Shown: positions 16,156 to 64,000, counted from the first letter of the stretch. The stretch: DNA of 64,000 nucleotides from an uncultured Chloroflexia bacterium (GCA_963707345.1 CAVPPE010000003.1:512072-576071), one strand, 5' to 3'. The notes: generated by a model from the letters alone, not told the origin. Numbers and translations are program-made.

Positions 16156-16197
16156 TTGACTTCTGGTGTAACGTGTGCTATTCTGTAGTGCAGAATA
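16156..16197 (+). promoter_or_regulatory. Candidate promoter with overlapping operator palindrome upstream of the ABC importer genes
   Basis: TTGACT (16156-16161), 17-nt spacer, TATTCT (16179-16184). A perfect inverted repeat TATTCTG-N5-CAGAATA (16179-16197) overlaps the -10. A second candidate is TTGCAT (16252-16257), N17, TACAAT (16275-16280). Confidence 0.35.
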
Positions 16198-16462
16198 TCT
16201 GATATTCGGATAGTTTGGCGCCACTGCGCCGGTGATCAGAAACAGCGATTGTTGCATGGGTTGTGCGAAGGTGATACAATGTGCTTCGAGAATTGCGCGG
16301 CAATCCCTTTTAAAACTACGATTCTTCCTCTGTAATCACCTCGTGATTTCTGATCTGACGTTTCCACATAGAGTGAAAGGAGTGTTATCAGGCGAATTTC
16401 CCAGACATCAGCCCAACCTTTGATTTTGCCTTTACAAATACTCAAGGAGGAGTGGTTTACCC

Positions 16463-18163: not shown

Positions 18164-18189
18164 AGCGTTACGCTGTAGGTAATCTGCGG

Positions 18190-18230
18190 GTAGTGAGGCG
18201 GGCACTGTTCGCCTCACTACCTTTTTGTTT
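18190..18230 (+). terminator. Intra-operon hairpin/attenuator after the SBP gene
   Basis: 11-bp stem GTAGTGAGGCG/CGCCTCACTAC (18190-18200 with 18210-18220) followed by CTTTTTGTTTT. Confidence 0.5.
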
Positions 18231-18269
18231 TCCCCCACTGGGGACATTCCTGGACACTGGGGAGAGCCT

Positions 18270-19568: not shown

Positions 19569-19577
19569 GGAGGAGCT

Positions 19578-20450: not shown

Positions 20451-20462
20451 GGGAGTTTGAGC

Positions 20463-44770: not shown

Positions 44771-45418
44771 ATGACAGATGAGCTTTCGCATCCCAATATC
44801 CCTGTGCCTGATGATCTCAAGGGAACGGTAACCCTCGCCACCTGGGAAAAGTTTTACAACTGGTGCCGAGCCCGCTCCGTCTGGCCCATGATGTTCGGCC
44901 TGGCCTGCTGTGCCATTGAGATGGTCGCCATGGCTACCTCGCGCTTTGACTTTGCCCGCTTTGGCATGGAGGTCATGCGCGCCAGCCCGCGTCAGGCTGA
45001 CCTGATGATTGTATCTGGAACGGTCACCAAAAAGATGGTGCCGCAGATTGTGCGTCTGTACAACCAAATAGCGGAGCCTCGTTACGTACTGGCGATGGGT
45101 GCTTGTGCCAGCGGTGGCGGGCCATTCAAAGAGGGCTATAGCGTTGTCTCTGGCGTTGACAAGTACGTCCCGGTGGATGTCTATGTGCCGGGATGCCCCC
45201 CCACGCCGCAGGCTTTGATCTACGGGTTTATCAAGCTGCACGAAAAGATCGAGAATCAGCCGCGCCAGGAATACACCTGGTACCAGAACCGCGGCCAGGG
45301 CGAGGTTATCCCTGTGCCCGTCCTGGGGCCAGATATTTTTGACCCGCGCCAGATTCCCCTCATCAAGGCCGAAACTGCCAAGGCGCGTGCAGCGGCCGCC
45401 GAGACCGACAGCGAATAG
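44771..45418 (+). CDS. nuoB: NADH-quinone oxidoreductase subunit B
   Basis: [36 protein letters not shown] and VPGCPP supply the four N2-cluster cysteines. Confidence 0.93.
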
Positions 45419-45434
45419 AGGAGAAGGTCCCCCC

Positions 45435-47216
45435 ATGAGCGAAAACTTGCATGTTGAAGCGGAAGCCTCCGAGCTGGAGACCAATGCAATAGAGCAGGCC
45501 TACCAGTTGCTGCAGCAAGAATTCCCCGGCAAGGTCAAGCCCGACGGCCGGGAAGGGTACGAGGGCGTCATTGTTGACGCGGACACGTTGCTGGAAGCGG
45601 CGACCTTTATGCGGGACAAGCTGGGCTTTGGCTATTTGTCGAGTGTCACTGGCGTGGATTACATCAACGACGGCTTGTTGGAATCGGTGTATCATGCGTA
45701 CAGCATGGAGGCCGCCGGGAGCGCATTGGTGTTCAAAGCGCAGGTAGCCCGCGACAACCCAGAAGTGCCCTCGCTGATCTCGGTTTGGCCGTCCGTCAAC
45801 TTCCAGGAGCGGGAAGCGTACGACATGGTTGGCATCCGCTATCAGGGCCATCCCAACTTGCAGCGTATTTTAACCTGGGAAGGATTCCACGGCTTTCCTC
45901 TGCGCAAGGATTGGAAAGAGCCGTACTTTGAAGAGGAACACAAGCCCTTTTCCAGCCGCCATCCCGAGGGGCATGTTTCCCGTGTCGAGGATCGCAATCC
46001 GTTTGGCAAGAATGTGCAATACCCACCGGATTTCGACCCAGACGAGTGGACAGAGGATATTGCCCAGCTTTCAGTTTACCAGACACTGGAGCGCAAGGCC
46101 CAGTCCGATGAGTTGGATACCGAGACATTGGTCATCAACCTGGGGCCGCAGCATCCCAGCACACACGGTGTGTTGCGCGTTGTTGCGGTGGTGGACGGGG
46201 AGACGATTGTTGACCTGATGCCGGTCTTTGGCTACTTGCACCGCAATCACGAGCAGATTGGCGAGCGATGTACCTTCCCCCAGATCACGCCCTACACGGA
46301 CCGGCTGGACTATATTTGCTCCATGTCCAACAACCTGGGTTATATCCTGGCGCTGGAAAAGTTGGTTGATGCCCGGCCGCCGGAGCGGGCAGAATACCTG
46401 CGCGTCATCATGGCCGAGTTGACACGCATCGTCAATCACATGCTGGCCATTGGCTTTCTGTGGAACGATGTAGGGGCCTTTTTCACCCCGGTGGTGTATG
46501 GTTTTAACGAGCGTGAGCTGATCCTTGACCTGTTTGAGATGGCGTCCGGTTCCCGCATGATGTGCAACTATATGCGGGCGGGCGGCGTGGCAGAGGACGT
46601 GCCGGATGGCTGGATGGAGAAGGCGCGGCCGGTGATCTTTGATCGCATGCCGCGTTTTGTGGATGAGTTGGAGCGGCTGGTCGTGGGCAACGAGATCTTT
46701 CGCGCCCGGTCGATCGGCGTTGGAATTCTTCCGCCAGAGAGGGCGATTGCGCTGGGAGCCACCGGGCCGTTGTTGCGGGGATCCGGCGTCCCGTACGACC
46801 TGCGGCGGGCAGAACCCTATTCCATTTATGACCGCTTTGATTTTGACGTAGCGGTGCGTTACAATGGGGACGTGTATGACCGTTTTATGATCCGGTTCGA
46901 TGAAATGCGCCAGAGCCTGCGGATATTGCAGCAGGCAATGAACCAGATTCCCGACGGCCCGATTCAGACCAGCAAGAAGAACTGGACCCTCAAAGTGCCG
47001 CCGGGCGAGGCATACCACCGGATTGAGGCCCCCAAGGGCGAACTGGGGTTCTATCTGGTCAGCGACGGCCGGTCGAACCCCTGGCGGTATCATGTGCGCT
47101 CAACCAGCATGATCAACCTGACGACGCTGGCAGAGATGTGCAGGGGCCACAAGATTGCAGATGTGGTGGTCATCCTGGGCAGCATCGACATTACTCTGGG
47201 AGAGGTGGACCGCTAA
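45435..47216 (+). CDS. nuoCD: NADH-quinone oxidoreductase fused subunits C/D
   Basis: ATG 45435. NuoC part ([19 protein letters not shown]). NuoD part ([15 protein letters not shown] ... [14 protein letters not shown]) with no NiFe-hydrogenase Cys ligands. Confidence 0.93.
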
Positions 47217-50814: not shown

Positions 50815-52007
50815 ACGAATTGGGAGTCGACTGGCGGGCAGAAGCGGATGGCCTGCGCGATCGGTTGGTTGTTTGGCGACGCGATTTCCACATGCATCCC
50901 GAGATTGGGTTTCAGGAGTATCGCACGGCCGGGGTGGTGGCGGCCGAACTGGAGCGGCTGGGTTACGTGGTCCATTCCGGCGTGGCCCAAACCGGCGTGG
51001 TGGGCCTGCTGGCACCCGGACGGCCTGGCCCCACGGTGCTGCTCCGCTTTGATATGGATTGCCTCCCCCTGCAAGAGGAAAACGACGTCCCGTACCGTTC
51101 CCAGAACGACGGGCTGATGCATGCCTGCGGCCATGATGGGCACGTTTCCATTGGCCTGGGCGTGGCGACCTTGCTGGCTCGCCATCGTGATCAATTGAGC
51201 GGGGCGGTCAAACTGATGTTCCAGCCCGGCGAGGAAGGGATGAACGGCGCGGCCGCGATGGTTGAGGCGGGCGTGCTGGATCAGTATGGCCCCCGGCCGG
51301 ACGTCGCCCTGGCGGCGCACCTGTGGAACGATCTGCCTTTGGGGCAGGTTGGCGCAGCCGCTGGGCCGGTGATGGCGGCGGCCGAGGCCTGGGAGTGCCA
51401 GATCAAGGGCAAGGGCGGGCACGGCGCCGCCCCCCACCAGACGGCCGATCCGGTGGTGGCAGCCGCTCAACTGGTCCTGGCCTGGCAAACTGTGGTCAGC
51501 CGCAATGTCAATCCGCAGGAGACGGCCGTGCTCAGCGTGGGCGCCATCCATGCGGGCGAAGCTTTTAACATCATTCCCCACTCGGCGACGCTGAGGGGCA
51601 CCATTCGCACTTTTTCTCCCAAGGTTCGGGAGACCGTGCTGCGCCGCTTTGAAGAGATTGCCCAGCACGTGTGCGCGGCGCATCACTGCCAGGCGGAGAT
51701 CAAGCTGATGCCCCTGACCCCGGCCGTGGTCAATCATGCAGATGTGACCGCCACGGTTCGCCAGGTGGCGGCCGAACTGGTCGGTGCGGATAATGTGCTC
51801 GACGTCCGCACGATGGGCTCCGAGGACATGGCCTTTGTCAACGCCCAGGTGCCGGGCTGCTATCTTTTTGTGGGGTCGCGTAACCAGTCGGCCGGGTTGG
51901 TGCATCCGCACCACAGCCCAAACTTTGATTTTGATGAAGATGCCTTGCCGCTGGCGGTGGGGCTGTTGACGGTCGCGGCCGCACGGTACCTGACAGGTCA
52001 GGCATGA
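50811..52007 (+). CDS. M20D-family amidohydrolase (N-acyl-amino acid amidohydrolase/hippuricase-like)
   Basis: [46 protein letters not shown]. Confidence 0.88.
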
Positions 52008-53473
52008 ACCAGCAGGCAACCCCGGCCGTGGTCGTCATCTTTGGCGCGTCTGGCGACCTGGCACAGCGCAAGCTGGTGCCGGCACTCCACAGCCTGAACT
52101 GCGAGAACCTGCTGCCGCCCACCACCCAGTTGATCGGCGTTGCCCGCAGCCCCCTGTCGGACCAGGCTTTCCGCGACCATCTTTATCAGGGGGTGGAGGC
52201 CTACTCGCGGCTCAAACCCGGCCTCTGCCAGCTTTGGGCTGGCTTTGCCGGCCGGCTGTCCTACCTGGCCGGGGGCTATGATGACCCAACTACCTATCAG
52301 CGGCTGGCGGAACGGCTGGCTCAACTGGACGCCACGGCCGGGACCAATGGCAATCACCTCTTTTACCTGGCTACCCCGCCGTCGCTGTATCCGGTCATCA
52401 TCCGTCAACTGGGCCAGGCCGGTCTGCATCGGGGCCAAACCGGCTGGAGCCGGATTATCATCGAAAAGCCATTTGGGCATGGCCAGGAGAGCGCCCGGGC
52501 GCTCAACCGGGAGGTGCACGCGGTCTTTCAGGAGGATCAGGTTTACCGCATTGACCATTACCTGGGCAAGGAGACGGTGCAAAACATCCTCGCCTTTCGC
52601 TTTGCCAACGCCATCTTTGAACCCCTGTGGAACCGCAACTATGTGGACCACGTGCAGATCACGGTTGCGGAACAGGTCGGTGTGGGCCATCGGGCTGGCT
52701 ATTACGACCGGGCTGGCGTGCTGCGCGACATGTTCCAGAACCATCTGCTCCAGTTGCTGGCACTGACCGCCATGGAGCCCCCGGCCGTCCTGAATGCCAA
52801 CGCGCTGCGCGATGAAAAGGTCAAGGTTCTGCGCTCGACGCGCGTGGCTGGGAGTGTGCGGGGGCAGTACGCGGGTTATCGCCGGGAAGAGGGAGTCGCG
52901 CCTGACTCGCAGACGCCCACCTTTGCGGCGCTGCAACTATATGTGGACAATTGGCGCTGGCGCAGCGTGCCTTTTTATCTGCGCTCCGGCAAGGCGCTTG
53001 CAGAAAAGACCACCGAGATCGCCATCCAGTTCAAGTGCGTGCCCCACCTGATGTTTCCTCTCCCGGCCGACGGCCGCATCACACCCAACCTGCTCTCATT
53101 ATGCCTCCAGCCGGATGAAGGGATTCACCTGCGCTTTGAGACCAAGGTCCCCGGTGCCGGCATGCAGACCCGCTCGGTGGACATGGAGTTCCACTACGCG
53201 GACGATTTTGGCGCGGCCGCGTTGCCGGACGCCTACGAGCGGTTGCTGCTGGACGCTGTCCAGGGCGACGCCGCCCTGTTTGCCCGCGCCGACGAGATTG
53301 AGCTGGCCTGGGGGCTGGTGGACCCGCTGCTGGCCGGCCGGGACCGGTCGGAGGCAGAGCCACTGGCTGTTTACCAGCCGGGTAGCTGGGGCCCGGCCGA
53401 GGCGGACGCCTTCTTGGCGGCCGATGGCCGTGCCTGGGTCAGCGGCTGCGGCGGCCACGATCCGGCCGGATGA
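52004..53473 (+). CDS. zwf: Glucose-6-phosphate 1-dehydrogenase
   Basis: [37 protein letters not shown]. Confidence 0.93.
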
Positions 53474-54192
53474 CTGAATACCGCGTCTTTCCGAATGCCA
53501 GTGCGGTTGCCGAGGCGGCGGCCAACCTCTTGGCGCAATTGGCTCAAGGTGCCGTGCGGGAGCGCGGCCGGTTTGCGGTCGCGCTGGCCGGGGGCAAAAC
53601 CCCTCGCGCGACGTACGCCCTGCTCGCCCGGCCGCCGTGGCGGGAGCAGATCCCCTGGCCGCAGGTGCACCTCTTTTGGGGGGATGAGCGCTGCGTCCCG
53701 CCGGATCATGACGCCAGCAACTACCGGCTGGCCCGGGAAGTGTTGCTGGATCACGTCTCGCTGCTGGCCGACCAGGTCCACCGCGTTCCGGGCGAACTGG
53801 AGCCGGAGGCGGCCGCGCAGGCCTATACCGACGAGCTGATGGTATTTTTTGGCGTGGATTGGCCCCAATTTGACCTGGTGCTGTTGGGGATGGGGGCCGA
53901 TGGGCACACCGCCTCCCTCTTTCCCAACTCGGCCGCCTTGCAGGTCCGTGACCGGCCGGTGGTGGCAGTGTCGGCCGACTACCAGGGGCGGCCGGCGGGG
54001 CGCGTGACGCTGACATTGCCGGCCATCAACGCGGCGCGGCAGGTGCTTTTTCTGGTGACCGGCGCGGCCAAAGCGGACGCCGTCAAAGCTACCCTGATAG
54101 AACAGGCCCCCCTCCCGGCCGCCATGGTTCGGCCGGAATCGGGGGGCCTGCTCTGGTTGTTGGACGCGGCCGCGGCCGGCCAGGTGGCCTAG
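53470..54192 (+). CDS. pgl: 6-phosphogluconolactonase
   Basis: [24 protein letters not shown] and [15 protein letters not shown]. 4-nt overlap with zwf. Confidence 0.9.
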
Positions 54193-57100
54193 CCGCCCAT
54201 CCGCGTCATAAAGTCCTGCACGTCCTTCTTGAACGTGCGCAATTCCTTCAGTTCCGTCTCCAGCTTGGCCACCTTGGGGGGGGCCGCTTCCAGCGTGGCC
54301 TGCTTTTGCTCCAGCGTCTGCAACTGCCCGCGCAAGGCAACCAATTCCTGATCCTTCTGCGCCAGCGTTGTTTTCATCTCCTCCAGCGATGTGCCGAGCG
54401 CTTCGACCTTGGCCGCAGCTGCCTGCTGTGCCTCGGTCTCCACGCGCACCACCTCGGCCGATTTGGGCGCATCCTCGGCCCGCACAAAGTAGCGGACCAC
54501 ACCATCCTGTTCGTAAAGCACCAGCCGGTCGCCGGCTGCAAAGGTTGCCGGCATCCGGCCGACCGCCTGCAAGTTCTTGAGCCCCAACGACGGATCGTAT
54601 TTCTCCACCCGCTCGATGGTCGCGTTGGCATCCTCGGCGTTTTCCAGCGCCTTTTCCAGCGGTTGATCCACCACCTCGTTCTTTTGCGCCTCTGCTTTTT
54701 CCTGCGGCCGGAAGAGGAGCTGGCCGACCTGACCGCCTAGCCAATCGCCGGTCACGTTCTGCGCCAGCTTGACCGTACTCACAGTCTCGGCCAACTTGCG
54801 TTGCAGCAAGCCGCTCTGTACGGCAGCCAGTCCAACGTTCAACTGGGTCGCCTTGGGCATGGCGGCCGCTTGAGCTTGCGTCCGCTTTTGCACAAAACCG
54901 GCCAGGAGATTGGGGAAGACCATGCAGCAGACCTGCTCCACTGCCCAATCCACAAGCGGGGTGATGGGGAGGAACGAGAGCCAGTAGCCCATGGTGGGGA
55001 AGCTTTTGACGTACTGGCGCTGGCTAAAGTTGCACACCTTGAACACTTCTTCGTCGCGCACCTGCACGGCCGCCAGATAAACCTCGTCTTCCTCACCGCA
55101 TTCGGGGCAGTTGACCAGCAGGTGATGGCAGAAGCAGTCCTTCAGGTACTGCACCAAACCGCCGATCAGCGCCACAAAGGCGGCAAACACCTTGGCCCGA
55201 TAGTCCACCAGCGCGTCGTAAAAGGCCTGGTTGCCGGGGATGGGATCGGCCGTGGCAGTCGGTTGCAGGTAGTCGGCCGAGACGACCGTGATGGTCCGGC
55301 TTACCCCGTTGAGGAAGTAGACCCGCTCGCCGTTCGGGTCCACGGCTATACCCATGGGGCCAATCTGCAGCGGCAGGACAAAGGGCGGCAGGTCGCCGGG
55401 CAGCACCGGGACCACCGTGTCGTTGGCCACCTCCACCAGCCCGGCCAGGAACCAGTCAGCGGCCGTGGCGATGAGGTACTCGCTGCCCGGCACGTGCGCC
55501 AGGCGAATCTGGGTGTCCGGCATATCCAATGTGGCCGACGGGTTTGCCTGGTGCCAAGGGAAGATGCACAACTTGCGGTCTTCGCTGCCCGCAACGCTGG
55601 CTACGGCGTACAGCTTGATGGCGTCGCCAAAGGGAACCACGGCGATGTCATCCCGGCCGGTGGTCTGTGCGCCCAGCGATGGCAACTGGTAGGTAAAGGT
55701 GACCGTAAAGTTGCTCCAATCGATCTCCAGCACCTGGTCAAACTCGACGCCGGCCGGGGCGTTTGCGCTGGCGGCCGAGGCAAAAGCCCGCTGCACATCA
55801 TCTGCAAGGACCAGGTGGCCGGCCGCTTTGAAGGGAGTCACCAGTTTGATCGTCGGCTGGCTGTCGTTTAGCTTGCTGATGAGAAACAGCCCGCTTTCCT
55901 CTCCCCGACCCACTGCCAGTAGCCGGTCTTTGAATTTACCCGGCCGGGCCAGCGTTTTGAGCACCACGTCACACAGGATGGTGACCGGTCGCCATCTGTA
56001 CTCGCCGTCCTGGATTTCGGCGGCCGCAAAGACCGTGTTCTCGTTGTTCACGCTGCCGATGGCGTACAATTGCTCCCCGTCGGCCGAGAAAGCAACATCC
56101 TGCACCACCAGCCCTTCGCCGCCGGGCATCTCCACGATCTTGACCAGCTCTTCCTTGCGCAGGTCAAAAACGTGAATCTCGTCATCATAGCCCACCGCGT
56201 AGCCGGCCGCGCCACTGGGATGGATTCGCAAACGGGTGTGCGGGCTGAGGCCAAAGATGGTGGACATCTCGATGTCTTCAAAGGGATAGTCCGGGAACTG
56301 GGGCGCGTCGTCAAACATCGCGCAAAAGGTTTTGCTCTGCAGCACATCGCGGAGTTGGAAGTAGAGCCGCCGCAGGATGTCATCTTCCTTGTCGGAGAGG
56401 TAAACGTGCTTGCCAAAGAGCGGATACGGGAACTGCACCAGCAGGTTGACCAGCGTGATGAGCTGTTTCCAGCGGGCGCTGACCAACCCGCCTTCGTCGT
56501 CATCGGCGGCCGCGCCGGTCAGCAACTCGATCAACTCCTTGAATGGTTCGGCAATACAGTCGCGGTAAAAGTCCGCCAGGATACTCCCCTTGAGCCACTG
56601 TTCCAGCGGGTTTTTGTTGGGAGTGTAGGGGCGCACGTCTACCTGCGGCTGGCCGTTGGCGTCCAGTTCGATGACCAGGGAGAATTCGCCGTAGCGCTTG
56701 CCATCCTTTTCCTTCAGCAAGGGCTGGTTGGGATGGGCGGCCTCCCAGGCTTGCACCAATTCCAGCACCGGGACCGACAGGTTCTCGTCCAGCACCAGGT
56801 CCCGCCCTTCGCAATCCAGCGCGTAGCCCGGCCGCACGATCACGGTCACCCGATCGCTCACCACCTCCGGGTCATCCTCGCACTCTACCTGCAGGCCGCA
56901 AACGACCCCCCAGCCGTGCAGATGTTTGTTGTGATGGCTCAGGTCGCGCAGGGCGCACAGTTGGTCCAGCGCCTCCTGTACGGTGGTCGCGTTGACCGCG
57001 TCACAATTGCTGTCGTCGTAGCACACATCCTCCGCGCAAATTTTGGTGAGCGGCGGAAAGTGCGGCCGGCAATCCTCGACGGTGGAATCGGCCCATTCCT

Positions 57101-58289
57101 CACCCTCGTCGGCCGTGGTGTCCTCCGCCCACGTGATTATTGCCAGCCTGCAAAAGTGGTGTTCCACCCCTTGCGGCGGGGCGGCGCTCAACTCGTCGAT
57201 CTTGCCGGTCGCGGTGCGGGCGGCAAAGGTCCAATAATCGCCAGGCTGGAAATCCGCACCAGAGAACGCGATCTGGACCCCATCCTCCAGCAGAATCGGC
57301 CCGGCCGCGACGGGAATGACGTCGCTGCCCTGATCCCAGCGCCGCACCCTGGCCCCGGTCCCGGCCGTCACCGCCCGGTCCAGCGTCAGGACGCGCTGGG
57401 CCGCGTCGACCTGGTTGATCTTTGCCATCGTTCCGGGCCGCAGCCAGAGGTCGTCAGCCTCATCCAGCACCTCCACCCAGTCGCCCGGCTGCAAGGCCAG
57501 CACCTGGTCCCGGCCGAGCTGCTTGAGCTGCACCTTGGTGGGTTCGGCCGGGAGCATGTCCTCCACGGCATAGACCACCGCGCCATTGTCGCGCGACCAT
57601 TTAAAGGTGGCAGCCCCCATCCCATCGCCATCGTGGATCTCCACCCGGTAGAGTCGGTTTTCCAGCCCACGGTAGCCACCGCCGGCCGGGATCAGGCACG
57701 GATCGGCTGCACCGGGGTCGATCAGCACGCTGGTGGTGAGCTTGCCGCGCTGATCGAGCGGCGGCACCGGCGGCCAGGGGTCAAACTCGCCCTCGCAGTC
57801 GGTCTCCTCCACCCCCGGCCGGACGCGCACCTGCCACACCGTTTGCAGGCGGGTGGTGGTGTCCGCGCCGCCCAGCGCCGGCTCCAGCAGTTCCGGATCC
57901 TCTACGGCCGTCACGTGCCGCTGCCAGATGTCCAGATAGACCAGGTCGACCCGGCCGTCCTGCGGGTTCAACGCCGGCGGGTTTGGTAGGTCGGGTTGGC
58001 TGGCATAGCTGTCCCCCTCAGCCACGCAAACGATGCCGCCAGCGTACAGCCGGCCGTCGGTCAGCGTCAGGTCGTCCCCGGCTGGGGTGGGGGTCACCCC
58101 AAAACCGGCATCGAACTTGGGCACGCCGCACTGGCCGATGACGTCGGTGGCGCGGGTCTCATCCAGGTATGCCTGGATGGCGGCCGACTCGTTCCAGTCA
58201 GCGTCCAGGTCCACCCGGCCCTGCTGCTTCAGCACGCGGGCGAATGGCTTCTTTGGGTCAAAGGTAAAACGTGTGAAATCCCCTTTCAT
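54189..58289 (-). CDS. 1366-aa multidomain protein in the tail-fibre slot of a phage-tail-like locus
   Basis: Uninterrupted 4.1-kb ORF, 13 nt downstream of the gpI-like gene. N-terminus FDPKKPFARVLKQQGRVDLDADWNE...GYRGLENRLYRVEIHDG. Propeller-like strands (IAVDPNGERVYFLNGVSRTITVV). DCFCHHLLVNCPECG. C-terminal heptads. See findings. Confidence 0.8.
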   Translation of the reverse strand: MKGDFTRFTFDPKKPFARVLKQQGRVDLDADWNESAAIQAYLDETRATDVIGQCGVPKFDAGFGVTPTPAGDDLTLTDGRLYAGGIVCVAEGDSYASQPDLPNPPALNPQDGRVDLVYLDIWQRHVTAVEDPELLEPALGGADTTTRLQTVWQVRVRPGVEETDCEGEFDPWPPVPPLDQRGKLTTSVLIDPGAADPCLIPAGGGYRGLENRLYRVEIHDGDGMGAATFKWSRDNGAVVYAVEDMLPAEPTKVQLKQLGRDQVLALQPGDWVEVLDEADDLWLRPGTMAKINQVDAAQRVLTLDRAVTAGTGARVRRWDQGSDVIPVAAGPILLEDGVQIAFSGADFQPGDYWTFAARTATGKIDELSAAPPQGVEHHFCRLAIITWAEDTTADEGEEWADSTVEDCRPHFPPLTKICAEDVCYDDSNCDAVNATTVQEALDQLCALRDLSHHNKHLHGWGVVCGLQVECEDDPEVVSDRVTVIVRPGYALDCEGRDLVLDENLSVPVLELVQAWEAAHPNQPLLKEKDGKRYGEFSLVIELDANGQPQVDVRPYTPNKNPLEQWLKGSILADFYRDCIAEPFKELIELLTGAAADDDEGGLVSARWKQLITLVNLLVQFPYPLFGKHVYLSDKEDDILRRLYFQLRDVLQSKTFCAMFDDAPQFPDYPFEDIEMSTIFGLSPHTRLRIHPSGAAGYAVGYDDEIHVFDLRKEELVKIVEMPGGEGLVVQDVAFSADGEQLYAIGSVNNENTVFAAAEIQDGEYRWRPVTILCDVVLKTLARPGKFKDRLLAVGRGEESGLFLISKLNDSQPTIKLVTPFKAAGHLVLADDVQRAFASAASANAPAGVEFDQVLEIDWSNFTVTFTYQLPSLGAQTTGRDDIAVVPFGDAIKLYAVASVAGSEDRKLCIFPWHQANPSATLDMPDTQIRLAHVPGSEYLIATAADWFLAGLVEVANDTVVPVLPGDLPPFVLPLQIGPMGIAVDPNGERVYFLNGVSRTITVVSADYLQPTATADPIPGNQAFYDALVDYRAKVFAAFVALIGGLVQYLKDCFCHHLLVNCPECGEEDEVYLAAVQVRDEEVFKVCNFSQRQYVKSFPTMGYWLSFLPITPLVDWAVEQVCCMVFPNLLAGFVQKRTQAQAAAMPKATQLNVGLAAVQSGLLQRKLAETVSTVKLAQNVTGDWLGGQVGQLLFRPQEKAEAQKNEVVDQPLEKALENAEDANATIERVEKYDPSLGLKNLQAVGRMPATFAAGDRLVLYEQDGVVRYFVRAEDAPKSAEVVRVETEAQQAAAAKVEALGTSLEEMKTTLAQKDQELVALRGQLQTLEQKQATLEAAPPKVAKLETELKELRTFKKDVQDFMTRMGG

Positions 58290-58302
58290 CGTTGCCTCCT
58301 GG

Positions 58303-60390
58303 TCACGTCACGTAAATGATCCCTGGCTCCAGGCCAAAGGGCAGGTACTCTTCCAATCGGATGCGCAAATTAGTCTCCCGCTGCGGCTGCATCAGGCTGC
58401 AAAACGCGCCCATCTCCGAGCCATCGGCCGCGCCGGTGCGAATCTCGTCCGGGCAATCGTGCCCCAACTGGCCGTAGCCCGGATCGCCGTAGTGGGTAGA
58501 AGTATAGCTGGGGCGCAGGCAGGCCAGGATGGCAGTGTGCTGGGCGGCCGGGGCCTTGTCCAGCGCCAGGTCTGGCTGGCAGCGGTAGCGGCGCGGAGTG
58601 GTGGAGCCGTCCGGCACAAAGCTTAAGCGGACGCAGCCGTTTTGCCGGCGGGCCGCCCGGACTTGACCGTCGAAAATGCACTCGGATGCGGTCAGCTCTT
58701 TGACGTACACTTCGCCCCAAAAGGTGGAGCGTTCGGCCGTGGTGGGAGGCCCCGGCCGGGTGGCCTCGTCGTTGGCGGCGATGGCCGGCTGCGGCAGATG
58801 GCCCACCGGCAAACCCTGCACCATGCTGTCGCGGATGGTCAAACTCTCACAGTCGGCCGGCAAGCGCAGCGGGCCGGTGATGCTCTTGTCAATGGTTACT
58901 GCCAGGTCGGCCGAGCGGCTGCCCACCAGCGTCAGGCTGTCCAGGTCCGGGAAGCGGGGCCGCCCATCTTCACGCAACAGCCGGCCGGGCACTAGCGTGC
59001 AGTGCGCCAGAGTCAGCTTCAGGTCGCCCTTCAGCCGCAGCGCCCCGCCGATCAGCAATCCGTTGAGCGTCAATTCGGCATCGCCGGCCGGCGCGCTGAG
59101 CACCGGCTGACCCACCGGCAGCACCACCGGCCGGAAGCCGTTCTTGGCCTCGATGACCAGCTTGCCATCGGCCGGCAACTGGATGTTGAACAGCCCCCCG
59201 TAAACGCCATTGTCCACAATCTGGATGACGGCTGGCGCCTTGCTGTGGGTCACCTCCCACTCATTCAGCCCATCCTGCAGCGTGCGATTGGGCAACTGCT
59301 TGCCAACCTGGATGAGCACCAGCCCGCGCCGCCCGGCCGCCAGCGATTCCTTTCGGTCGTACGGGCCGCCGCCCATCTCGGCGCTAAAGCCGTAGGTCAT
59401 GTCCACCGTCACTGCGCGCGGGGCGATGCCGGCCGGAAAAGCGATCCGGCCGTGGCGCACATCCACCGCCACCTTGCCGGCCGGGGGGTCTCCCCAGGTG
59501 GAGAGGTCCTGGCAGACAATCTCGGAGAGCGGGACCAGGTCCAGTGGGTCGGCCGTGGGGCCGCGGTAGATAGCCAGGCTTTTGCCCGGCCCGTAGAAAT
59601 CGGCCGGCCGGAAGTAAAAGGCGGCCGGGCGGATCGGGCCGGGGACGTGCAACTCGGTCGCCAACTGGTCGGCGGCCGCCTCCCGCTCCGGGTTGGTAAA
59701 GAGCGGGGCGGGGTTGCCCAGCGGGCTAAAATAAAAGCCACGCGAGAAGCTGCCAGAGCGCCGCGCCGGAACCCCCGTCATGGGGAACTGGCTTAACCGC
59801 CAGAGGAAAAAGTTGATCTTGCGGATGTTGTGCCGGCCGACCCGCTGATCGGCCGGGCGCACATCCACTGTGTGGCAAAGGGTGTCAAACGGCCCATCCA
59901 GCCGGTCCGCGGCGTCCATCTCCCGCAGGTTGACCGTTCCCACCCGGCCGATGGCGTGTGGGAAGCGATGGTCCGGGTTGGCCGCCGTTGTGTAGCGCAA
60001 ATGGTTGACGTTCTGGGTCCAGCCTAGGTTCTCAAAGGCCGCCACCGCGTGCGCACCCCAGTTGGTCACGTCGCGGGCCAGCTCTTCCAGCATGGGCAGC
60101 ACCCCCTTGCGCCGCCGGTAAGAGATGGTCTTGGCGACATCGGCGCGGCGCCCCTGGATGATCTCGTAGAGCGGATTGTTGCCCACCAGATCGCCGATGT
60201 AGGGGATCACCCAATCTGCACAGGTCTCAATAAACAGATCGTCCCACAGGCCGTCAACGTCCCGCTTGAGGATGTCCACCTGCTCCGCGACAATTTCCAG
60301 CAGCGCACGGAGTGGATAGCCTTGCTCGGCGTCGCGCATACGGTAGACGGCCGGGAGCAACTGATACAGGTCCACAGCTTTATCGCTCAT
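58303..60390 (-). CDS. Phage-tail-like baseplate protein (P2 gpI / Afp12 / gp7-position, TIGR02242-like N-terminus)
   Basis: LYQLLPAVYRMRDAEQGYPLRALLEIVAEQVDIL...ETCADWVIPYIGDLVGN. ATGA overlap with the upstream gpJ-like gene. Confidence 0.8.
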   Translation of the reverse strand: MSDKAVDLYQLLPAVYRMRDAEQGYPLRALLEIVAEQVDILKRDVDGLWDDLFIETCADWVIPYIGDLVGNNPLYEIIQGRRADVAKTISYRRRKGVLPMLEELARDVTNWGAHAVAAFENLGWTQNVNHLRYTTAANPDHRFPHAIGRVGTVNLREMDAADRLDGPFDTLCHTVDVRPADQRVGRHNIRKINFFLWRLSQFPMTGVPARRSGSFSRGFYFSPLGNPAPLFTNPEREAAADQLATELHVPGPIRPAAFYFRPADFYGPGKSLAIYRGPTADPLDLVPLSEIVCQDLSTWGDPPAGKVAVDVRHGRIAFPAGIAPRAVTVDMTYGFSAEMGGGPYDRKESLAAGRRGLVLIQVGKQLPNRTLQDGLNEWEVTHSKAPAVIQIVDNGVYGGLFNIQLPADGKLVIEAKNGFRPVVLPVGQPVLSAPAGDAELTLNGLLIGGALRLKGDLKLTLAHCTLVPGRLLREDGRPRFPDLDSLTLVGSRSADLAVTIDKSITGPLRLPADCESLTIRDSMVQGLPVGHLPQPAIAANDEATRPGPPTTAERSTFWGEVYVKELTASECIFDGQVRAARRQNGCVRLSFVPDGSTTPRRYRCQPDLALDKAPAAQHTAILACLRPSYTSTHYGDPGYGQLGHDCPDEIRTGAADGSEMGAFCSLMQPQRETNLRIRLEEYLPFGLEPGIIYVT

Positions 60391-63071
60391 GTTTCACCTG
60401 TCAGTCCAAGTGTGATGGTGATATCGGCCGCGGCCAGTGTCGCCAGTTCGTCAAGCCAGATGGCCAGGTGGGCTTGCACCGGGTCGACCGTCGCGCCGTG
60501 GCTGGCTCGATCGGCCGGGCTCTTGAATTGCAGCCGATTCACTTCCACCGCCTCCACCCCCTCCACCTCCTGCACCACGCGGTACACGTCGCTCAGGTGG
60601 ATGGGTTGGCCCAGGTTCAGGTTGTCAAAATCAAAATAATCAGCCAGAGTCGATTGGGCGGCCGCTTGCACCGTCTCGGTCTGGTAACTGGCATCCAGCT
60701 TGATGGCCGCCTCAATTTGCAGCGCGACCGGGTGGTAATCGCTCACGATCAGCTTGCGGTTGGGGTCGCGCCGGCTGTCCAGGTCGGCGACCAGGTTTTT
60801 GTGCGTATCGCCGCCCGGCTCGACCGGCGCGCCGTCGTCACCCGCTACAGTGAGCAGCACAACCTGCTCCATGCCATCCCACTGCCAGCTAGCGCGTGCC
60901 TTGGCGATGCCGGCATAGGCGCGAGCCGCATCCTCAAAGTCGCGCAGGGAGACCACCCGCTCAAAGGTGCGGACGGTGTTGGGGGCGTTGGTGCGGGCCT
61001 GTGCCAGGCTCTCCGGTTCGGCACCCCCGGCCGCCGCGGCCGGGTTGGTGGCCGATTTGAGGCCAGTGGGTTTGTCCAATAGGGTGGTCAGCACCCCGGC
61101 CGTGATGTTGCCATCCTGCCCGATCCCTTGCCGGTAGTTGCCGATGACGTTGTTGCGGCCGGTGGGCAAACGCGCCCCGGTGGTCCCGTCGCCAAACTGG
61201 ATGGTCATCTCGCCCTCGTCGTCGACACGGGTCACAAAGACCCGCTCGTCGGCCGGCCGGCCGTAGAGCGAATCCCGCTCCTGCCATTTGACGCCGTCCA
61301 CCCGTATCTGTAGAGTGTTTGCCGCGCCGTTCTTGGCCCCCGCCTGGGGGACAAAGGTGACCGGCGACTTTTTGAGCGCAAACGACTGGAGTCCCTGGCT
61401 GGCGTCGCCGCTACCCAACACTTCGTCTGCTACGGTTTCGCCGTGGGTGACGAGCACCACGTTGGCCCGGCCGGTGGCCGTGGCGCTGACCAGCGAATCC
61501 TGCAGCGCGTCCGCCAGCGTAATCTTGAGGTGGTCTCCTTCTACCGCGATGCTGCTGATTTTGCTGGCCTGCGCCCGGCCGGCCCCATCCTCCAAAATGA
61601 TCCGCCGGCCGGAGACCAGATACTGGGCGCGTTCGGCCGCGGTCAACCCCAACTCGGACAGGGGCACATAGACTGCATTGCCGCTGATGGTGGGGCCGTA
61701 TTGGGATTGCCACAATGAGATAGGAGGGCCTTCCAGTTCGTAGACCACGGCCGAGCGCACGTCGATGCCGATGGGTAGTTGCGGCGACACGGCGACCCGC
61801 GTGACGGTGGCTTGCATGACGGGCGGTCCGGTCCCGCTGGTGGGGATCTGTGCGGCAACCTGCTCGACGGCGGTCACCGTCACGGTTTGGACCACCGCGC
61901 CGTTTCTGAGCTTGCCGGCCACCAGCAGCTCGGTGTTCTCTTTCAAATCGTCGTACACACCATCCAGTTGTAGCAAGGCGTAACCGGCCGTGTACGGATC
62001 AAAGCTCTTTTCCTGCCAGAGCACGTTGTTGTGGCTATCCACGCTGACGGAAAAGAACTTAGCCGGGGCGTTGTGACCAAAAAGGCGGAACTTGCGCGTC
62101 CATTTGTGGATCTTGGCTCCGGCCGAAAAGCTGCAGCGCACGGCCGGTTCCCAGGTGATCTCCTGCCGCCAGTCCACTTGCTGGATGTCCGCTACTTCTT
62201 TGTCCTCCACATGGACCGGGTTATCGCAGCCGGTGTAAACCGGTGTGATTTCAATTCCAGGTATGGGCGCTTTCTCTGCCTTTTCCAGTAAATCATCTTC
62301 CATCTCGGCCAGCAGTTCCTGAATGCGGTGCCGGGCTTCCTTTACCTGCTTGCTCACATGGTCAGCCATCTCACCCAGGCCCAGGTCAACGGTGGGGCCT
62401 GCCATGGCCTGAACAAGAACGGGCTGGTAGATGACGATCTTTTCCCCGGCCGCCAGGTAGCTGATGTCCCCCAGCGCGGTGGCTACGGTTCGCCCGGCCG
62501 CCAGTGGCGTATCGGCAGTAGGCTGGGGGTAGACGCGGAAGTGGTTGAGCGGCGGTATGACTGTCAGCGTCTCAACCGTCTCGAATTTCTGCGGTTTCTC
62601 GTCTTGCCCCGGCACGCTCTGCGCCCGCAGGCCGATGGGAATCACCACCGTTTTTCCCTTGTCCACGGTAAAGGCCAGTTGAGTGGTGGCGGCCATGCCG
62701 TTGGCCGGCCGGTAGTCGAGCAGCGCTGCCAACCGCAACACCGACTCGCGGTGCACCGCTGTGCGCAAGTACGCCTCGTTGGCAATCCGTTCCTGGTAAA
62801 AGGTCAGGATATCGGCCAGGTAAGCCCACATCTCCAACAAGGCAATACCAAAATCGTCACTCTGGCGGGAGGTCCAGTCGTTCAGCGGCCGGATAGGTTT
62901 GTGCCCTTGCTCCGGCGTGATTTTGGTCCCGGCGATCGCTTGCAGCATCGCCTGGCGGAAGGTGGGGTAGCTGCCCACCCGGTAGACGACGGCCGAAAGG
63001 CCCGGCCGGTTATCCATGCATTCGGGCGTCGGGGGAACCGGCGCCTGGCAACAGCCACACGAGTCGCTCAT
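60387..63071 (-). CDS. Baseplate J (gpJ/gp6/Afp11)-like putative baseplate assembly protein
   Basis: N-terminus MSDSCGCCQAPVPPTPECMDNRPGLSAVVYRVGSYPTFRQAML. gpJ-type motifs NYRQGIGQDGN and GGAEPESLAQARTNAPNTVRTFERVVSLRDFE. Confidence 0.85.
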   Translation of the reverse strand: MSDSCGCCQAPVPPTPECMDNRPGLSAVVYRVGSYPTFRQAMLQAIAGTKITPEQGHKPIRPLNDWTSRQSDDFGIALLEMWAYLADILTFYQERIANEAYLRTAVHRESVLRLAALLDYRPANGMAATTQLAFTVDKGKTVVIPIGLRAQSVPGQDEKPQKFETVETLTVIPPLNHFRVYPQPTADTPLAAGRTVATALGDISYLAAGEKIVIYQPVLVQAMAGPTVDLGLGEMADHVSKQVKEARHRIQELLAEMEDDLLEKAEKAPIPGIEITPVYTGCDNPVHVEDKEVADIQQVDWRQEITWEPAVRCSFSAGAKIHKWTRKFRLFGHNAPAKFFSVSVDSHNNVLWQEKSFDPYTAGYALLQLDGVYDDLKENTELLVAGKLRNGAVVQTVTVTAVEQVAAQIPTSGTGPPVMQATVTRVAVSPQLPIGIDVRSAVVYELEGPPISLWQSQYGPTISGNAVYVPLSELGLTAAERAQYLVSGRRIILEDGAGRAQASKISSIAVEGDHLKITLADALQDSLVSATATGRANVVLVTHGETVADEVLGSGDASQGLQSFALKKSPVTFVPQAGAKNGAANTLQIRVDGVKWQERDSLYGRPADERVFVTRVDDEGEMTIQFGDGTTGARLPTGRNNVIGNYRQGIGQDGNITAGVLTTLLDKPTGLKSATNPAAAAGGAEPESLAQARTNAPNTVRTFERVVSLRDFEDAARAYAGIAKARASWQWDGMEQVVLLTVAGDDGAPVEPGGDTHKNLVADLDSRRDPNRKLIVSDYHPVALQIEAAIKLDASYQTETVQAAAQSTLADYFDFDNLNLGQPIHLSDVYRVVQEVEGVEAVEVNRLQFKSPADRASHGATVDPVQAHLAIWLDELATLAAADITITLGLTGET

Positions 63072-64000
63072 TTTCCACCTAGCATGTTCAGGCGCAGCAC
63101 GCCGTGTTCCTGAAAATTGGGGTCGTTATCCAGCCGCGCCACCTCCAGGCGACCCAGCGGGATGTACCCCTGATCCAATTCGCTATTGGCCGCCTTGCCA
63201 AACCGTTGAAATAGCTTCACCTCGGCCGAATCTACCCCTTCCACCGCCTCCACGGCCGCATACAGCTTGCTCAAATATACCGACTGCCCAAAGGTCCACT
63301 GGTCGGGGTGGAAAAAGCCACCCGGCCGGTTGCTGAGCGCCTTGAGAACTGCCTGTTGGACGTGAGCCCGGAAATGGGTCGGCGCCACGCAGACGTCGAT
63401 CTCGATCTCTAGCGACACATAAGTTGGCGGGTCGATCTCCAAATCGTAGCCGGCCTGAGTAAAGCGGCGCACCCAGGCCTTGATTCGCTCCTGCAACGCC
63501 GCGGGCAGATCGGCCCGGCCGACCGGGTCCACGGTGATAAAGACGGTGTGCCAACTCCCGGTCCAGCGAAAGGTGGCCACCGCTTTGGAGACATCAGGGT
63601 GTTTTCCGGCCGCCCGGGCGTAATCCGCCTCGGTGACCGCTCGCAACTGCTCAGCGTGGAAGGCGGCCGGGGCCAGTTGTTTTGCCTGCTCGATGGGCTC
63701 CGGATCGATTCCGCCCCAGGCCGGCAGCGGGTTGCGCACGGCCGTCACGTCGGGCCAGGCAAGTGCGGCCGCCGGCCGGATCAGATGACTGAGCGCTTCT
63801 GCCCCCACGTTGCCCGCGCTGCCCACCCCGACCCGGTAGTCCACTCTCACATTGGCCTTGTCGGGCGGGGCAGCACCGTATTCGTTGTCGCCAAAGCGGA
63901 GCAGCGGCCGGCCGTCGTTGTCGGTCTCGACCGCAACGTGGTGGGCAAAGTCATCGCTGTCCAACAAATGGAGCACCGGTTGCCAGTCATCGGCCGGGGA
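63068..64000 (-). CDS. Baseplate J-like protein (C-terminal part; 5' end beyond the window)
   Basis: The frame stays open to 64000. DYRVGVGSAGNVGAEAL and GGIDPEPIEQAKQLAPAAFHAEQLRAVTEADY are gpJ-type motifs. ATGA overlap with the downstream gene. Confidence 0.8.
   Translation of the reverse strand, partial: SPADDWQPVLHLLDSDDFAHHVAVETDNDGRPLLRFGDNEYGAAPPDKANVRVDYRVGVGSAGNVGAEALSHLIRPAAALAWPDVTAVRNPLPAWGGIDPEPIEQAKQLAPAAFHAEQLRAVTEADYARAAGKHPDVSKAVATFRWTGSWHTVFITVDPVGRADLPAALQERIKAWVRRFTQAGYDLEIDPPTYVSLEIEIDVCVAPTHFRAHVQQAVLKALSNRPGGFFHPDQWTFGQSVYLSKLYAAVEAVEGVDSAEVKLFQRFGKAANSELDQGYIPLGRLEVARLDNDPNFQEHGVLRLNMLGGK

What the first reader, a model, noticed from the sequence alone, without database searches (positions are those of the whole stretch)
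54189..64000. Distal (baseplate) end of a phage-tail-like contractile injection locus set among housekeeping genes
Four co-directional minus-strand genes are tightly coupled, with ATGA start/stop overlaps at 63068-63071 and 60387-60390 and a 13-nt gap at 58290-58302. In order they are: a gpJ/gp6-like protein running off the window; a second 894-aa gpJ-like protein with the CxCC...NRPGL N-terminus; a 695-aa P2-gpI/Afp12-like protein; and a 1366-aa terminal protein. This is the Afp11-Afp12-Afp13 order of extracellular contractile injection systems. On the visible side there is no integrase, lysis, capsid or fibre-chaperone gene; the neighbour is zwf-pgl. In my two hand-counted blocks the locus is also CGGCCG-enriched (3 and 11 per 600 nt against about 0.5 expected), like the other sampled blocks. 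Both points argue for a resident, domesticated particle rather than a recent prophage. Sheath, tube, spike, ATPase and cargo genes should lie beyond 64000.
Basis: partly seen in the sequence, partly recalled or inferred. Interest (0 to 1): 0.8.

Follow-up and report, generated by a model that had tools for sequence, protein, structure and literature searches.

The report
Baseplate end of contractile injection system
The last 10 kb of the window encode the outer baseplate and the fibre-position protein of a phage-tail-like contractile injection machine of a recently catalogued, widespread subtype, so this is a sound but largely expected find.

Summary
Four intact, translationally coupled minus-strand genes (63068->64000, 60387-63071, 58303-60390, 54189-58289) end against pgl/zwf. 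Two are baseplate-J/TIGR02243 paralogues. The 695-aa protein has a remote gpI/TIGR02242-type N-domain fused to a right-handed beta-helix. The 1366-aa protein starts with DUF6519, which a 2026 paper names eBAP5, a baseplate anchor of eCIS fibres. The window could not be extended. In about 80 related loci from many phyla the same four genes follow gp25, spike, hub and CIS_tube. Three fully visible operons begin with sheath, gp19 tube, Pvc16 cap, WHD-AAA ATPase and eCIS_core genes, with cellular flanks and no head genes. The 695-aa and 1366-aa proteins have no relative in 50,697 phage genomes. Composition, including CGGCCG context bias, matches the host. The layout is the Tail_P2_I/eBAP5 baseplate type, not Afp11-12-13. 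Sheath and tube are inferred from synteny only. 'Extracellular' is unproven: the fibre-position protein is conserved along its full length and carries a beta-propeller, an invariant Cys cluster and a coiled coil. Verdict: new member of a known kind, modest interest.

The parts
63068..64000 (-). C-terminal part (at least 309 aa) of baseplate-J paralogue 1 (gpJ1), cut off by the window end. Orthologues are about 800-950 aa.
   Evidence: TIGR02243 at 2.1e-54, 185.2 bits, above the 155.8 cut-off. Baseplate_J at 3e-4. 78% identical to L001 and 67% to L002. Its stop overlaps the gpJ2 start in ATGA.
60387..63071 (-). Baseplate-J paralogue 2 (gpJ2, 894 aa) with a paralogue-specific CxCC...NRPGL N-terminus.
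   Evidence: TIGR02243 at 3.6e-71 and Baseplate_J at 4.6e-16. Best solved relative is S. coelicolor CIS chain 9gtp_1K at 3e-14, with weak hits to pyocin PA0618, diffocin TRI-2 and T4 gp6. Motif in 42/67 gpJ2 and 0/67 gpJ1. 29% identical to gpJ1.
58303..60390 (-). 695-aa wedge or adaptor protein: a remote gpI/TIGR02242/Mu-gp48-type N-domain (about aa 10-130), a right-handed parallel beta-helix body (about aa 200-660) and a strongly conserved C-terminal tail.
   Evidence: TIGR02242 in 43/49 family members (best 1.9e-7; window protein 0.057); Mu_Gp48 in 32/49; Tail_P2_I in 5/49; all below curated cut-offs. AF2 pLDDT above 90 over aa 200-660. Foldseek hits PL6 alginate lyase 7dmk at E=5e-5, probability 1.0, TM 0.29, plus pectate lyases and tailspikes. 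More than 4700 homologues. No phage match.
58290..58302 (-). 13-nt intergenic spacer carrying the ribosome-binding site AGGAGG for the fibre-position gene.
   Evidence: Read directly from the sequence.
54189..58289 (-). 1366-aa fibre-position protein (DUF6519/eBAP5 class), the last gene of the operon. Its stop shares the palindrome CTAG with the stop of the convergent pgl gene.
   Evidence: PF20129 DUF6519 at 4e-58, 197.8 bits against a 22.4 cut-off. More than 5000 homologues, many covering the full length at 36-47% identity. DUF6519 is named eBAP5, a fibre baseplate anchor, in PMC12923769. No phage match.
56790..58289 (-). Fibre-position protein aa 1-500: eBAP5/DUF6519 baseplate-anchor region, including a short CIS13-like motif at aa 450-504.
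   Evidence: CIS13_fam at 2.5e-7, far below its cut-off. 58-63% identity to homologues in the best-conserved blocks.
55275..56267 (-). Fibre-position protein aa about 675-1005: seven-bladed YVTN/WD40-like beta-propeller, the most plausible ligand-binding part.
   Evidence: AF2 pLDDT above 90. Foldseek target-normalised TM about 0.8 to WD40 and YncE propellers. Family profile against S-layer YVTN protein 1l0q at 1.1e-12. Only 21-46% identity to homologues.
54891..55229 (-). Fibre-position protein aa about 1021-1133: conserved Cys-rich helical module (K-D-C-x-C-x6-C-x-x-C, then C1086 and CC1121-1122) flanked by hydrophobic helices.
   Evidence: 62% identity, as conserved as the N-terminus. Motif in 112/120 homologues; hydrophobic helix median Kyte-Doolittle (19-residue window) 1.49. 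Invariant Cys columns. Model pLDDT 50-90.
54192..54659 (-). Fibre-position protein aa 1211-1366: small alpha/beta domain followed by a long C-terminal coiled coil.
   Evidence: AF2 model: aa 1211-1270 at pLDDT about 90, helices at aa 1278-1364. Weak coiled-coil matches. 17-30% identity with occupancy above 0.9.

Best explanation
Positions 54189-64000 are the 3' end of a roughly 25-kb operon for a phage-tail-like contractile injection system (CIS) of the Tail_P2_I-adaptor / eBAP5-fibre baseplate type.

Shown:
- Four intact, translationally coupled genes encode two diverged baseplate-J paralogues, a gpI-type adaptor with a beta-helix body, and a DUF6519 protein at the fibre position.
- In relatives the same four genes directly follow gp25, a DUF4280/PAAR-like gene, an OB-fold spike, a GPD hub and a CIS_tube initiator.
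- Further upstream in relatives lie a sheath, a gp19-type tube, a Pvc16 cap, a WHD-AAA ATPase and one to three eCIS_core (DUF4157) genes.

Inferred mechanism:
1. gpJ1 and gpJ2 occupy the two non-equivalent gpJ positions of each wedge. The (Cis11)2-Cis12 wedge of the Streptomyces CIS and the (gpJ)2-gpI wedge of pyocin R2 use two copies of one protein there.
2. The N-domain of the 695-aa protein completes the wedge core, and its beta-helix projects outward.
3. The DUF6519 domain docks on that adaptor.
4. The beta-propeller, Cys-cluster module and coiled coil form the distal sensor or attachment device.
5. Engagement of this device rearranges the baseplate, the sheath contracts, and the tube and spike are driven out with their cargo.

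Unresolved: whether particles are released and act on other cells (eCIS mode, about 0.6) or fire from inside the producer is not settled by sequence.
For: - Family assignments: TIGR02243 above cut-off for both gpJ proteins and DUF6519 at 4e-58.
- The gpI-type N-domain is seen consistently across the family.
- Conserved gene order in about 80 loci.
- Three complete operons with sheath, tube, PF12322, Pvc16, ATPase, eCIS_core, CIS_tube, GPD, base_V and gp25 upstream, with cellular flanks.
- gpJ2's best solved relative is the CIS-Sc baseplate-J-like chain 9gtp_1K; the paper describes a wedge of two Cis11 and one Cis12.
- PMC12923769 describes fibres downstream of Tail_P2_I, eBAP5 = DUF6519, and the Tail_P2_I/eBAP3,5 baseplate type.
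- Intactness and translational coupling.
- No viral or phage relatives of the two distal proteins.
- Host-like composition.
Against: - Sheath, tube, spike and ATPase were never seen for this genome. The source contig is in the protein collection but could not be retrieved.
- The closest locus by gpJ1 (L001, 78%) does not have the closest downstream genes, so cassettes can be mosaic.
- The Tail_P2_I/TIGR02242 assignment of the window's own 695-aa protein is sub-threshold (E=0.057).
- The wedge stoichiometry and the fibre docking site are inferred by analogy. No multimer model was made.
- No member of this sub-lineage appears to have been imaged or purified.
Confidence: 0.9

Rival explanations
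1. The locus builds an intracellular, anchored CIS rather than a released particle. The DUF6519 protein would tether or couple the baseplate to a host membrane or envelope structure, or would sense a signal. The system would fire from inside the producer, as in the thylakoid-anchored tCIS or the Streptomyces CIS with CisA.
For: - The fibre-position protein keeps the same architecture over its full length across many phyla, and its Cys module is as conserved as the baseplate anchor. That is unlike fast-evolving receptor-binding tips.
- It has an invariant CxC-x6-CxxC cluster, typical of metal sites in the reducing cytoplasm.
- The hydrophobic helices next to that cluster are often the most hydrophobic segments of the protein.
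- gpJ2's closest solved relative is from the cytoplasmic CIS-Sc.
- No lysis gene is annotated in the three complete operons.
Against: - Hydrophobicity is only borderline (median Kyte-Doolittle 1.49, window protein 1.43-1.53), so a membrane span is not predicted with confidence.
- The propeller surface and the C-terminal tail are variable (17-46% identity), as expected for a target-binding part.
- PMC12923769 treats DUF6519 proteins as eCIS tail fibres.
- No CisA-like bitopic protein lies downstream in the window; pgl follows directly.
- Phage fibres also bind metals, so the Cys cluster is not diagnostic.
Confidence: 0.3
2. This is the tail module of an ordinary or decaying myovirus prophage, with head, terminase and integrase genes beyond 64000.
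For: Baseplate J, gpI-type and fibre-position genes in this order are also the end of P2-like tail modules. gpJ2 has distant partial matches (28-34% identity over 31-48% of its length) to baseplate J genes of 10 phage records.
Against: - Three complete orthologous operons have cellular flanks and no capsid, portal or terminase genes, and they carry the eCIS markers Pvc16_N, WHD-AAA ATPase and eCIS_core.
- The 695-aa and 1366-aa proteins have no match in 50,697 phage genomes.
- Pattern scans of 2.9 million viral contigs found no relative of gpJ2 or of the 695-aa family.
- The only tRNA gene in the window is about 14 kb from the locus boundary, and no integrase family was found among the ten neighbouring ORFs scanned.
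- Composition matches the host.
Confidence: 0.03
3. The window holds only a stranded remnant: a baseplate-fibre fragment whose sheath and tube part has been lost, so no particle is made.
For: The upstream part is unseen. Cassettes are horizontally mobile and mosaic.
Against: - All four ORFs are full length relative to homologues, at 99-100% coverage.
- They keep ATGA coupling and a ribosome-binding site.
- They retain the invariant family residues.
- gpJ1 continues in frame to the window edge.
- The order gp25-gpJ1 is conserved in the related loci that have sequence upstream.
Confidence: 0.04

Closest known systems
eCIS loci with a Tail_P2_I-type baseplate and eBAP5 (DUF6519) fibres, catalogued computationally in PMC12923769 (Nat Commun 2026)
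   Same: - The DUF6519 N-terminus is on the last structural gene.
- That gene sits directly downstream of a gpI/Tail_P2_I-type gene and Baseplate_J genes.
- There is no recognisable Afp12.
- Relatives carry the eCIS markers Pvc16_N, eCIS_core and CIS_tube.
   Different: - The paper's example eBAP5 fibres carry macroglobulin shafts with pectin-lyase, lectin or hemagglutinin tips. Here the distal part is a YVTN/WD40-like beta-propeller, a Cys-cluster module and a coiled coil.
- The pectate-lyase-like beta-helix sits on the adaptor protein instead.
- The paper links eBAP5 mainly to Actinobacteriota. The relatives found here span Chloroflexota, Nitrospirota, Verrucomicrobiota, Acidobacteriota, Cyanobacteriota, Pseudomonadota and Methanothrix.
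Streptomyces coelicolor CIS-Sc (type IId, cytoplasmic; PDB 9GTP; PMC12237407)
   Same: - gpJ2's best solved relative is chain 9gtp_1K, a baseplate J-like protein of this assembly (3e-14).
- The wedge logic of two gpJ-type subunits plus one gpI-type subunit is the same.
- Relatives of the window locus carry Cis16/Pvc16 cap and Cis15-type ATPase genes.
   Different: - CIS-Sc uses two copies of one Cis11. Here there are two paralogues only 24-30% identical.
- CIS-Sc has no fibre and instead has the bitopic membrane protein CisA downstream. Here a 1366-aa DUF6519 protein occupies that position.
- In relatives of the window locus, the cap and ATPase genes lie between the tube genes and the cargo and hub genes.
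R-type pyocin / phage P2 baseplate (gpJ, gpI, gpH fibre)
   Same: - The order is gpJ, then a gpI-type protein, then the fibre.
- The wedge has two gpJ and one gpI.
- The fibre is proposed to attach through the gpI-type protein.
- gpJ2 gives weak sequence hits to PA0618.
   Different: - The proteins here are two to four times larger.
- The gpI-type protein carries a roughly 460-aa beta-helix.
- The fibre-position protein is unrelated to gpH.
- No fibre-chaperone gene is present.
- Relatives carry a cap, an ATPase and DUF4157 proteins that pyocins lack.
Afp / PVC (Afp11-Afp12-Afp13)
   Same: It is a tail-like injection particle, and its baseplate and fibre genes come late in the structural module in the same general order.
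   Different: - No Afp12 or Afp13 family signal was found.
- The adenovirus-like shaft and eBAP1 anchor are replaced by DUF6519.
- There are two gpJ paralogues.
- In relatives the ATPase and cap genes lie upstream, not downstream, of the baseplate genes.
T6SS baseplate (TssF2-TssG-TssK)
   Same: PMC12923769 reports that Tail_P2_I proteins resemble TssG and that eBAP3 fibres resemble TssK, and that eBAP5 shares partial similarity with eBAP3/eBAP4. The layout of two gpJ/TssF-type subunits, one gpI/TssG-type subunit and a shoulder-domain protein is analogous.
   Different: No TssJLM, ClpV or TssA signal was seen in relatives. The eCIS markers Pvc16_N and eCIS_core are present. The similarity to TssK and TssG was not tested here.

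Membership tests
Phage-tail-like contractile injection system (CIS/eCIS superfamily) | Baseplate wedge protein of the gpJ/gp6/Afp11 family | tested here: met
   TIGR02243 at 240.6 and 185.2 bits (cut-off 155.8); Baseplate_J at 4.6e-16; 9gtp_1K at 3e-14.
Phage-tail-like contractile injection system (CIS/eCIS superfamily) | Sheath, inner tube, hub/spike and gp25 genes in the same operon | not testable with these tools
   They lie beyond 64000, and the source contig was not retrievable. They are present in the orthologous operons L081, a JGI 54.6-kb contig and L082. gp25, spike and hub are present in 71-72 of the 80 related loci.
Phage-tail-like contractile injection system (CIS/eCIS superfamily) | eCIS-specific accessory genes (Pvc16_N cap, Afp15-type AAA ATPase, DUF4157/eCIS_core) | not testable with these tools
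   Not in the window. Present in relatives.
Phage-tail-like contractile injection system (CIS/eCIS superfamily) | No capsid, portal, terminase or integrase genes attached | tested here: inconclusive
   None among the ten neighbouring ORFs scanned on the visible side and none in three complete orthologous operons. The far side of this genome's locus is unseen.
Tail_P2_I / eBAP5-type eCIS baseplate (PMC12923769) | Fibre-position gene with an N-terminal DUF6519 (eBAP5) domain | tested here: met
   PF20129 at 4e-58, 197.8 bits against a 22.4 cut-off.
Tail_P2_I / eBAP5-type eCIS baseplate (PMC12923769) | Tail_P2_I-type adaptor gene immediately upstream of the fibre gene | tested here: inconclusive
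   Window protein: nothing in Pfam at E<=10, and TIGR02242 at E=0.057. Across the family: TIGR02242 in 43/49, Mu_Gp48 in 32/49 and Tail_P2_I in 5/49, always at the N-terminal 110-130 aa and always below the curated cut-offs.
Tail_P2_I / eBAP5-type eCIS baseplate (PMC12923769) | Absence of an Afp12 homologue | tested here: met
   No Afp12-type family hit for any of the four proteins. The A1 profile finds no PDB chain, Afp12 and Pvc12 included.
Afp/PVC-type eCIS (Afp11-Afp12-Afp13) | Afp13/Pvc13-type fibre (adenovirus-like shaft, eBAP1 anchor) | tested here: not met
   The fibre-position protein is DUF6519 plus a beta-propeller. No shaft-repeat or adenovirus-fibre hits were found.
Myovirus prophage tail module | Close relatives of the baseplate and fibre genes in phage genomes | tested here: not met
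   The fibre-position and 695-aa proteins have no tblastn match in 50,697 phage records. gpJ2 gives only 28-34% partial matches in 10 records. No relatives were found in IMG/VR pattern scans.
Cytoplasmic CIS of Streptomyces type (type IId) | No fibre gene, and a CisA-like bitopic membrane protein downstream of the baseplate genes | tested here: not met
   A 1366-aa DUF6519 protein occupies the position, and the next gene is the convergent pgl. No clear transmembrane helix: maximum Kyte-Doolittle (19-residue window) 1.57.
Type VI secretion system | TssJLM membrane complex, ClpV and TssA with a TssEFGK baseplate | not tested
   None of these families appeared in the Pfam maps of relatives, which instead carry Pvc16_N and eCIS_core. 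No dedicated search was made.

The most novel reading that the evidence does not exclude
The DUF6519 protein of this sub-lineage is not a receptor-binding tail fibre. It is a conserved coupling device made of a beta-propeller sensor, a Cys4-type metal or redox module with membrane-associating helices, and a coiled coil. It would tether the baseplate to a structure of the producer cell or gate firing in response to a signal. This widespread cassette, found from Chloroflexota to Methanothrix, would then be a further intracellular or conditionally fired CIS mode rather than a released eCIS.
Probability: 0.2. Interest if true: 0.7.

Novelty: new member of a known kind. Interest (0 to 1): 0.3.

Why it matters
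This adds one more chromosomally resident, host-adapted contractile injection locus of the Tail_P2_I/eBAP5 subtype. That subtype has so far been defined only computationally and, as far as I could find, has no purified particle or solved baseplate.

Three features are concrete handles for a structural or functional study of the subtype:
- The two diverged gpJ paralogues, where the Streptomyces CIS and pyocin R2 use two copies of one protein.
- The beta-helix on the adaptor.
- The fibre-position protein, which is conserved along its full length and carries an invariant Cys cluster.

The open question of released versus intracellular action is of real interest. The locus itself is what a specialist would expect to find.

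Tried and rejected
1. Extending the window. Exact-protein look-ups for gpJ2, the 695-aa protein and its identical database entry P0229 all returned 'not on record'. The cluster look-up shows the proteins sit on one 844,962-bp NCBI/ENA contig without name or accession. The single genome-contig scan found no copy of the source genome; the best hit was 78% identical.
2. Taxon of the source. This was not determined. The best gpJ1 hits are from an Actinomycetota MAG and from Chloroflexota MAGs, but the cassette is horizontally spread and no related locus shares the pgl/zwf flank.
3. Sequence-level link of the 695-aa family to any solved structure: none at E<=1.
4. Sequence-level link of the fibre-position family to the tCIS crown, TssK or any CIS fibre in the PDB: none. 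Only YVTN propeller and generic coiled-coil hits were found.
5. Clear transmembrane helices in the fibre-position protein: only borderline hydrophobicity, so a membrane-anchor reading could be neither confirmed nor excluded.
6. A catalytic reading of the beta-helix as a polysaccharide lyase. Fold similarity is generic (TM 0.2-0.3) and catalytic residues were not assessed, so no enzymatic claim is made.
7. The antisense ORFs longer than 100 aa across the region cluster only as shadows of the conserved sense genes and were dismissed.

Full report
**Observation.** The ORF list reproduces the four minus-strand genes at the stated coordinates: 54189-58289 (1366 aa), 58303-60390 (695 aa), 60387-63071 (894 aa), and an ORF from 63068 that runs off the window. 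The two ATGA stop/start overlaps and the 13-nt spacer are real, and the spacer carries AGGAGG. gpJ2 begins MSDSCGCCQ...NRPGL. Across related loci this motif occurs in 42 of 67 second paralogues and in none of 67 first paralogues, so it is a genuine paralogue signature. The neighbours are pgl (53470-54192) and zwf (52004-53473). They are followed by an amidohydrolase, a BshB-like deacetylase, RicT, a NuoC/D fusion, a TPR protein and MalQ. The only tRNA gene lies about 14 kb away.

CGGCCG occurs 434 times in the window against 57 expected from base composition. Its density is 5.4 per 600 nt in the locus and 3.8 elsewhere.

**What the four genes are.** Both gpJ-like proteins pass the curated cut-off of TIGR02243, and gpJ2 also passes Baseplate_J. 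gpJ2's best solved relative is a baseplate J-like chain of PDB 9GTP (3e-14). It also gives weak hits to pyocin PA0618, diffocin TRI-2 and T4 gp6. 9GTP is the Streptomyces coelicolor CIS, whose wedge contains two Cis11 and one Cis12, like pyocin R2 (PMC12237407). The two paralogues here are only 24-30% identical to each other.

The 695-aa protein has no Pfam hit even at E<=10. Scanning 49 family members individually gave TIGR02242 in 43 (best 1.9e-7; the window protein 0.057), Mu Gp48 in 32 and Tail_P2_I in 5. The hits were always over the N-terminal 110-130 residues and always below the curated cut-offs. An AlphaFold2 model (pLDDT 76 overall, above 90 for aa 200-660) shows a right-handed parallel beta-helix. 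It resembles PL6 alginate lyases, pectate lyases and phage tailspikes only at the level of the general fold. The protein is therefore a remote gpI-type wedge domain fused to a large beta-helix, and it is not an Afp12.

The 1366-aa protein starts with DUF6519 (4e-58). A model of aa 430-1366 (pLDDT 80) gives these parts:
- An alpha/beta domain and a helical linker.
- A confident seven-bladed propeller at aa about 675-1005. Foldseek gives a target-normalised TM of about 0.8 to WD40 and YncE propellers, and the family profile matches YVTN repeats at 1e-12.
- A Cys-rich helical module at aa about 1021-1133.
- A small alpha/beta domain.
- A long C-terminal coiled coil.

**Context from elsewhere.** The window could not be extended. 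Its proteins are in the protein collection on one 845-kb NCBI/ENA contig, but the position index has no record of them. A scan of species-representative genomes returned 80 loci, and 342 stretches in all encoded a relative. The best hits were 78% (an Actinomycetota MAG) and 67% (a Promineifilaceae chromosome). The loci come from many bacterial phyla and from Methanothrix.

Clustering all ORFs of these loci gave one conserved order: Pvc16 cap, WHD-AAA ATPase, a variable eCIS_core region, CIS_tube, a roughly 100-aa protein, GPD hub, OB-fold spike, DUF4280, gp25, gpJ1, gpJ2, the gpI-type adaptor, and a 1050-1460-aa terminal protein. Three operons anchored on the ATPase show the remaining upstream part: sheath, gp19-type tube, a PF12322 protein, an unknown protein and then the cap. 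Two of the three have a BTAD regulator in front. All three have cellular genes beyond and no head genes.

**Prophage rival.** The 695-aa and 1366-aa proteins have no tblastn match in 50,697 phage genomes, and gpJ2 has only ten distant partial matches. Pattern scans of 2.9 million viral contigs found nothing.

**Residency.** The tetranucleotide correlation of the locus with the rest of the window is 0.964, against 0.966-0.986 for other 10-kb blocks. That puts it at the edge of the range but not outside it. GC3 is the same as in the neighbouring genes. CGGCCG exceeds a synonymous-codon shuffle by about 2-4-fold in the CIS genes and the housekeeping genes alike, with the same codon phase (NCG-GCC-GNN). 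This supports long residence. No related locus shares the pgl/zwf flank, which fits horizontal spread of the cassette as a unit.

**Comparison with the known.** PMC12923769 (Nat Commun 2026) makes several relevant points:
- It names DUF6519 eBAP5, one of five baseplate-anchor domains of eCIS tail fibres.
- It places fibre genes downstream of Tail_P2_I and Baseplate_J genes.
- It distinguishes an Afp11/12 baseplate type from a Tail_P2_I type used by eBAP3 and eBAP5, which largely lacks Afp12.

The window matches the second type. It differs from the paper's eBAP5 examples in its distal domains. Those examples have macroglobulin shafts with pectin-lyase or lectin tips. Here there is a propeller, a Cys module and a coiled coil, and the beta-helix sits on the adaptor.

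**Mechanism and open point.** By analogy with the (Cis11)2-Cis12 and (gpJ)2-gpI wedges, gpJ1 and gpJ2 most likely fill the two non-equivalent gpJ positions. The adaptor's N-domain would complete the wedge, and the DUF6519 domain would dock on the adaptor. This is inference, and no multimer model was made.

Whether the particle is released is not shown. Against a classical fibre, the protein keeps one architecture across phyla. Its Cys module is 62% identical to homologues, as conserved as the baseplate anchor at 63%. The propeller (21-46%) and the C-terminal tail (17-30%) vary. The motif K-D-C-x-C-x6-C-x-x-C is present in 112 of 120 homologues, and the adjacent helix is only borderline hydrophobic, with a median Kyte-Doolittle value of 1.49. 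An intracellular or anchored mode therefore remains a live rival, at about 0.3.

**Verdict.** This is a new member of a known, recently catalogued kind.

Noticed in passing
window 54189-54192: The convergent fibre-position and pgl genes end on the same four bases: the palindrome CTAG provides TAG on both strands. There is no intergenic space for a terminator.
   Followed up: partly
whole window: CGGCCG is 7.6-fold over base-composition expectation (434 against 57) and about 2-4-fold over a synonymous-codon shuffle, mostly in the phase NCG-GCC-GNN. GCCGGC is also high (152). GGGCCC (10), CCCGGG (19) and GGCGCC (27) are depleted. This looks like a genome-wide context bias or restriction-avoidance pattern of unknown cause.
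   Followed up: partly
L001 (CAVPHL010000005.1) 8414-20942: The locus with the closest gpJ1 (78%) is not among the closest for gpJ2, the adaptor or the fibre-position protein, and its ORFs downstream of gpJ1 look broken or different. This could be cassette mosaicism or frameshifts in a long-read MAG.
   Followed up: no
L009, L012, L014 (Methanothrix MAGs): Archaeal loci carry the same gene order, with gpJ1 54-58% identical to the window's. This implies transfer of the whole cassette between domains.
   Followed up: no
L082 12468-19155; JGI 54.6-kb contig; L081 12406-13923: The region between the ATPase and CIS_tube holds one to three eCIS_core (DUF4157) genes of very different size; one has a faint CHAP hit. 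In some loci a 1230-1360-aa DUF4157-motif protein plus a TPR protein sits there. This appears to be the variable cargo slot.
   Followed up: partly
L082 2588-3601 and the JGI 54.6-kb contig (locus coordinates 3242-4168): A BTAD-domain regulator gene lies just upstream of the sheath gene in two of the three complete operons.
   Followed up: no
L031 19159-19695, L050 19202-19528 and others: In some lineages a small helical protein follows the fibre-position gene: cluster c43 (about 175 aa, 12 loci) or c57 (about 108 aa, 8 loci). Neither has a Pfam hit, and the window has neither because pgl follows directly.
   Followed up: partly
window 45339-47216: NuoC and NuoD are encoded as one 625-aa fusion protein.
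   Followed up: no
window 58303-63071 (tool behaviour): The window's proteins are present in the protein collection on an 844,962-bp contig, but the exact-match position index reports them as not on record. 'Not on record' from that tool does not mean the sequence is absent.
   Followed up: yes
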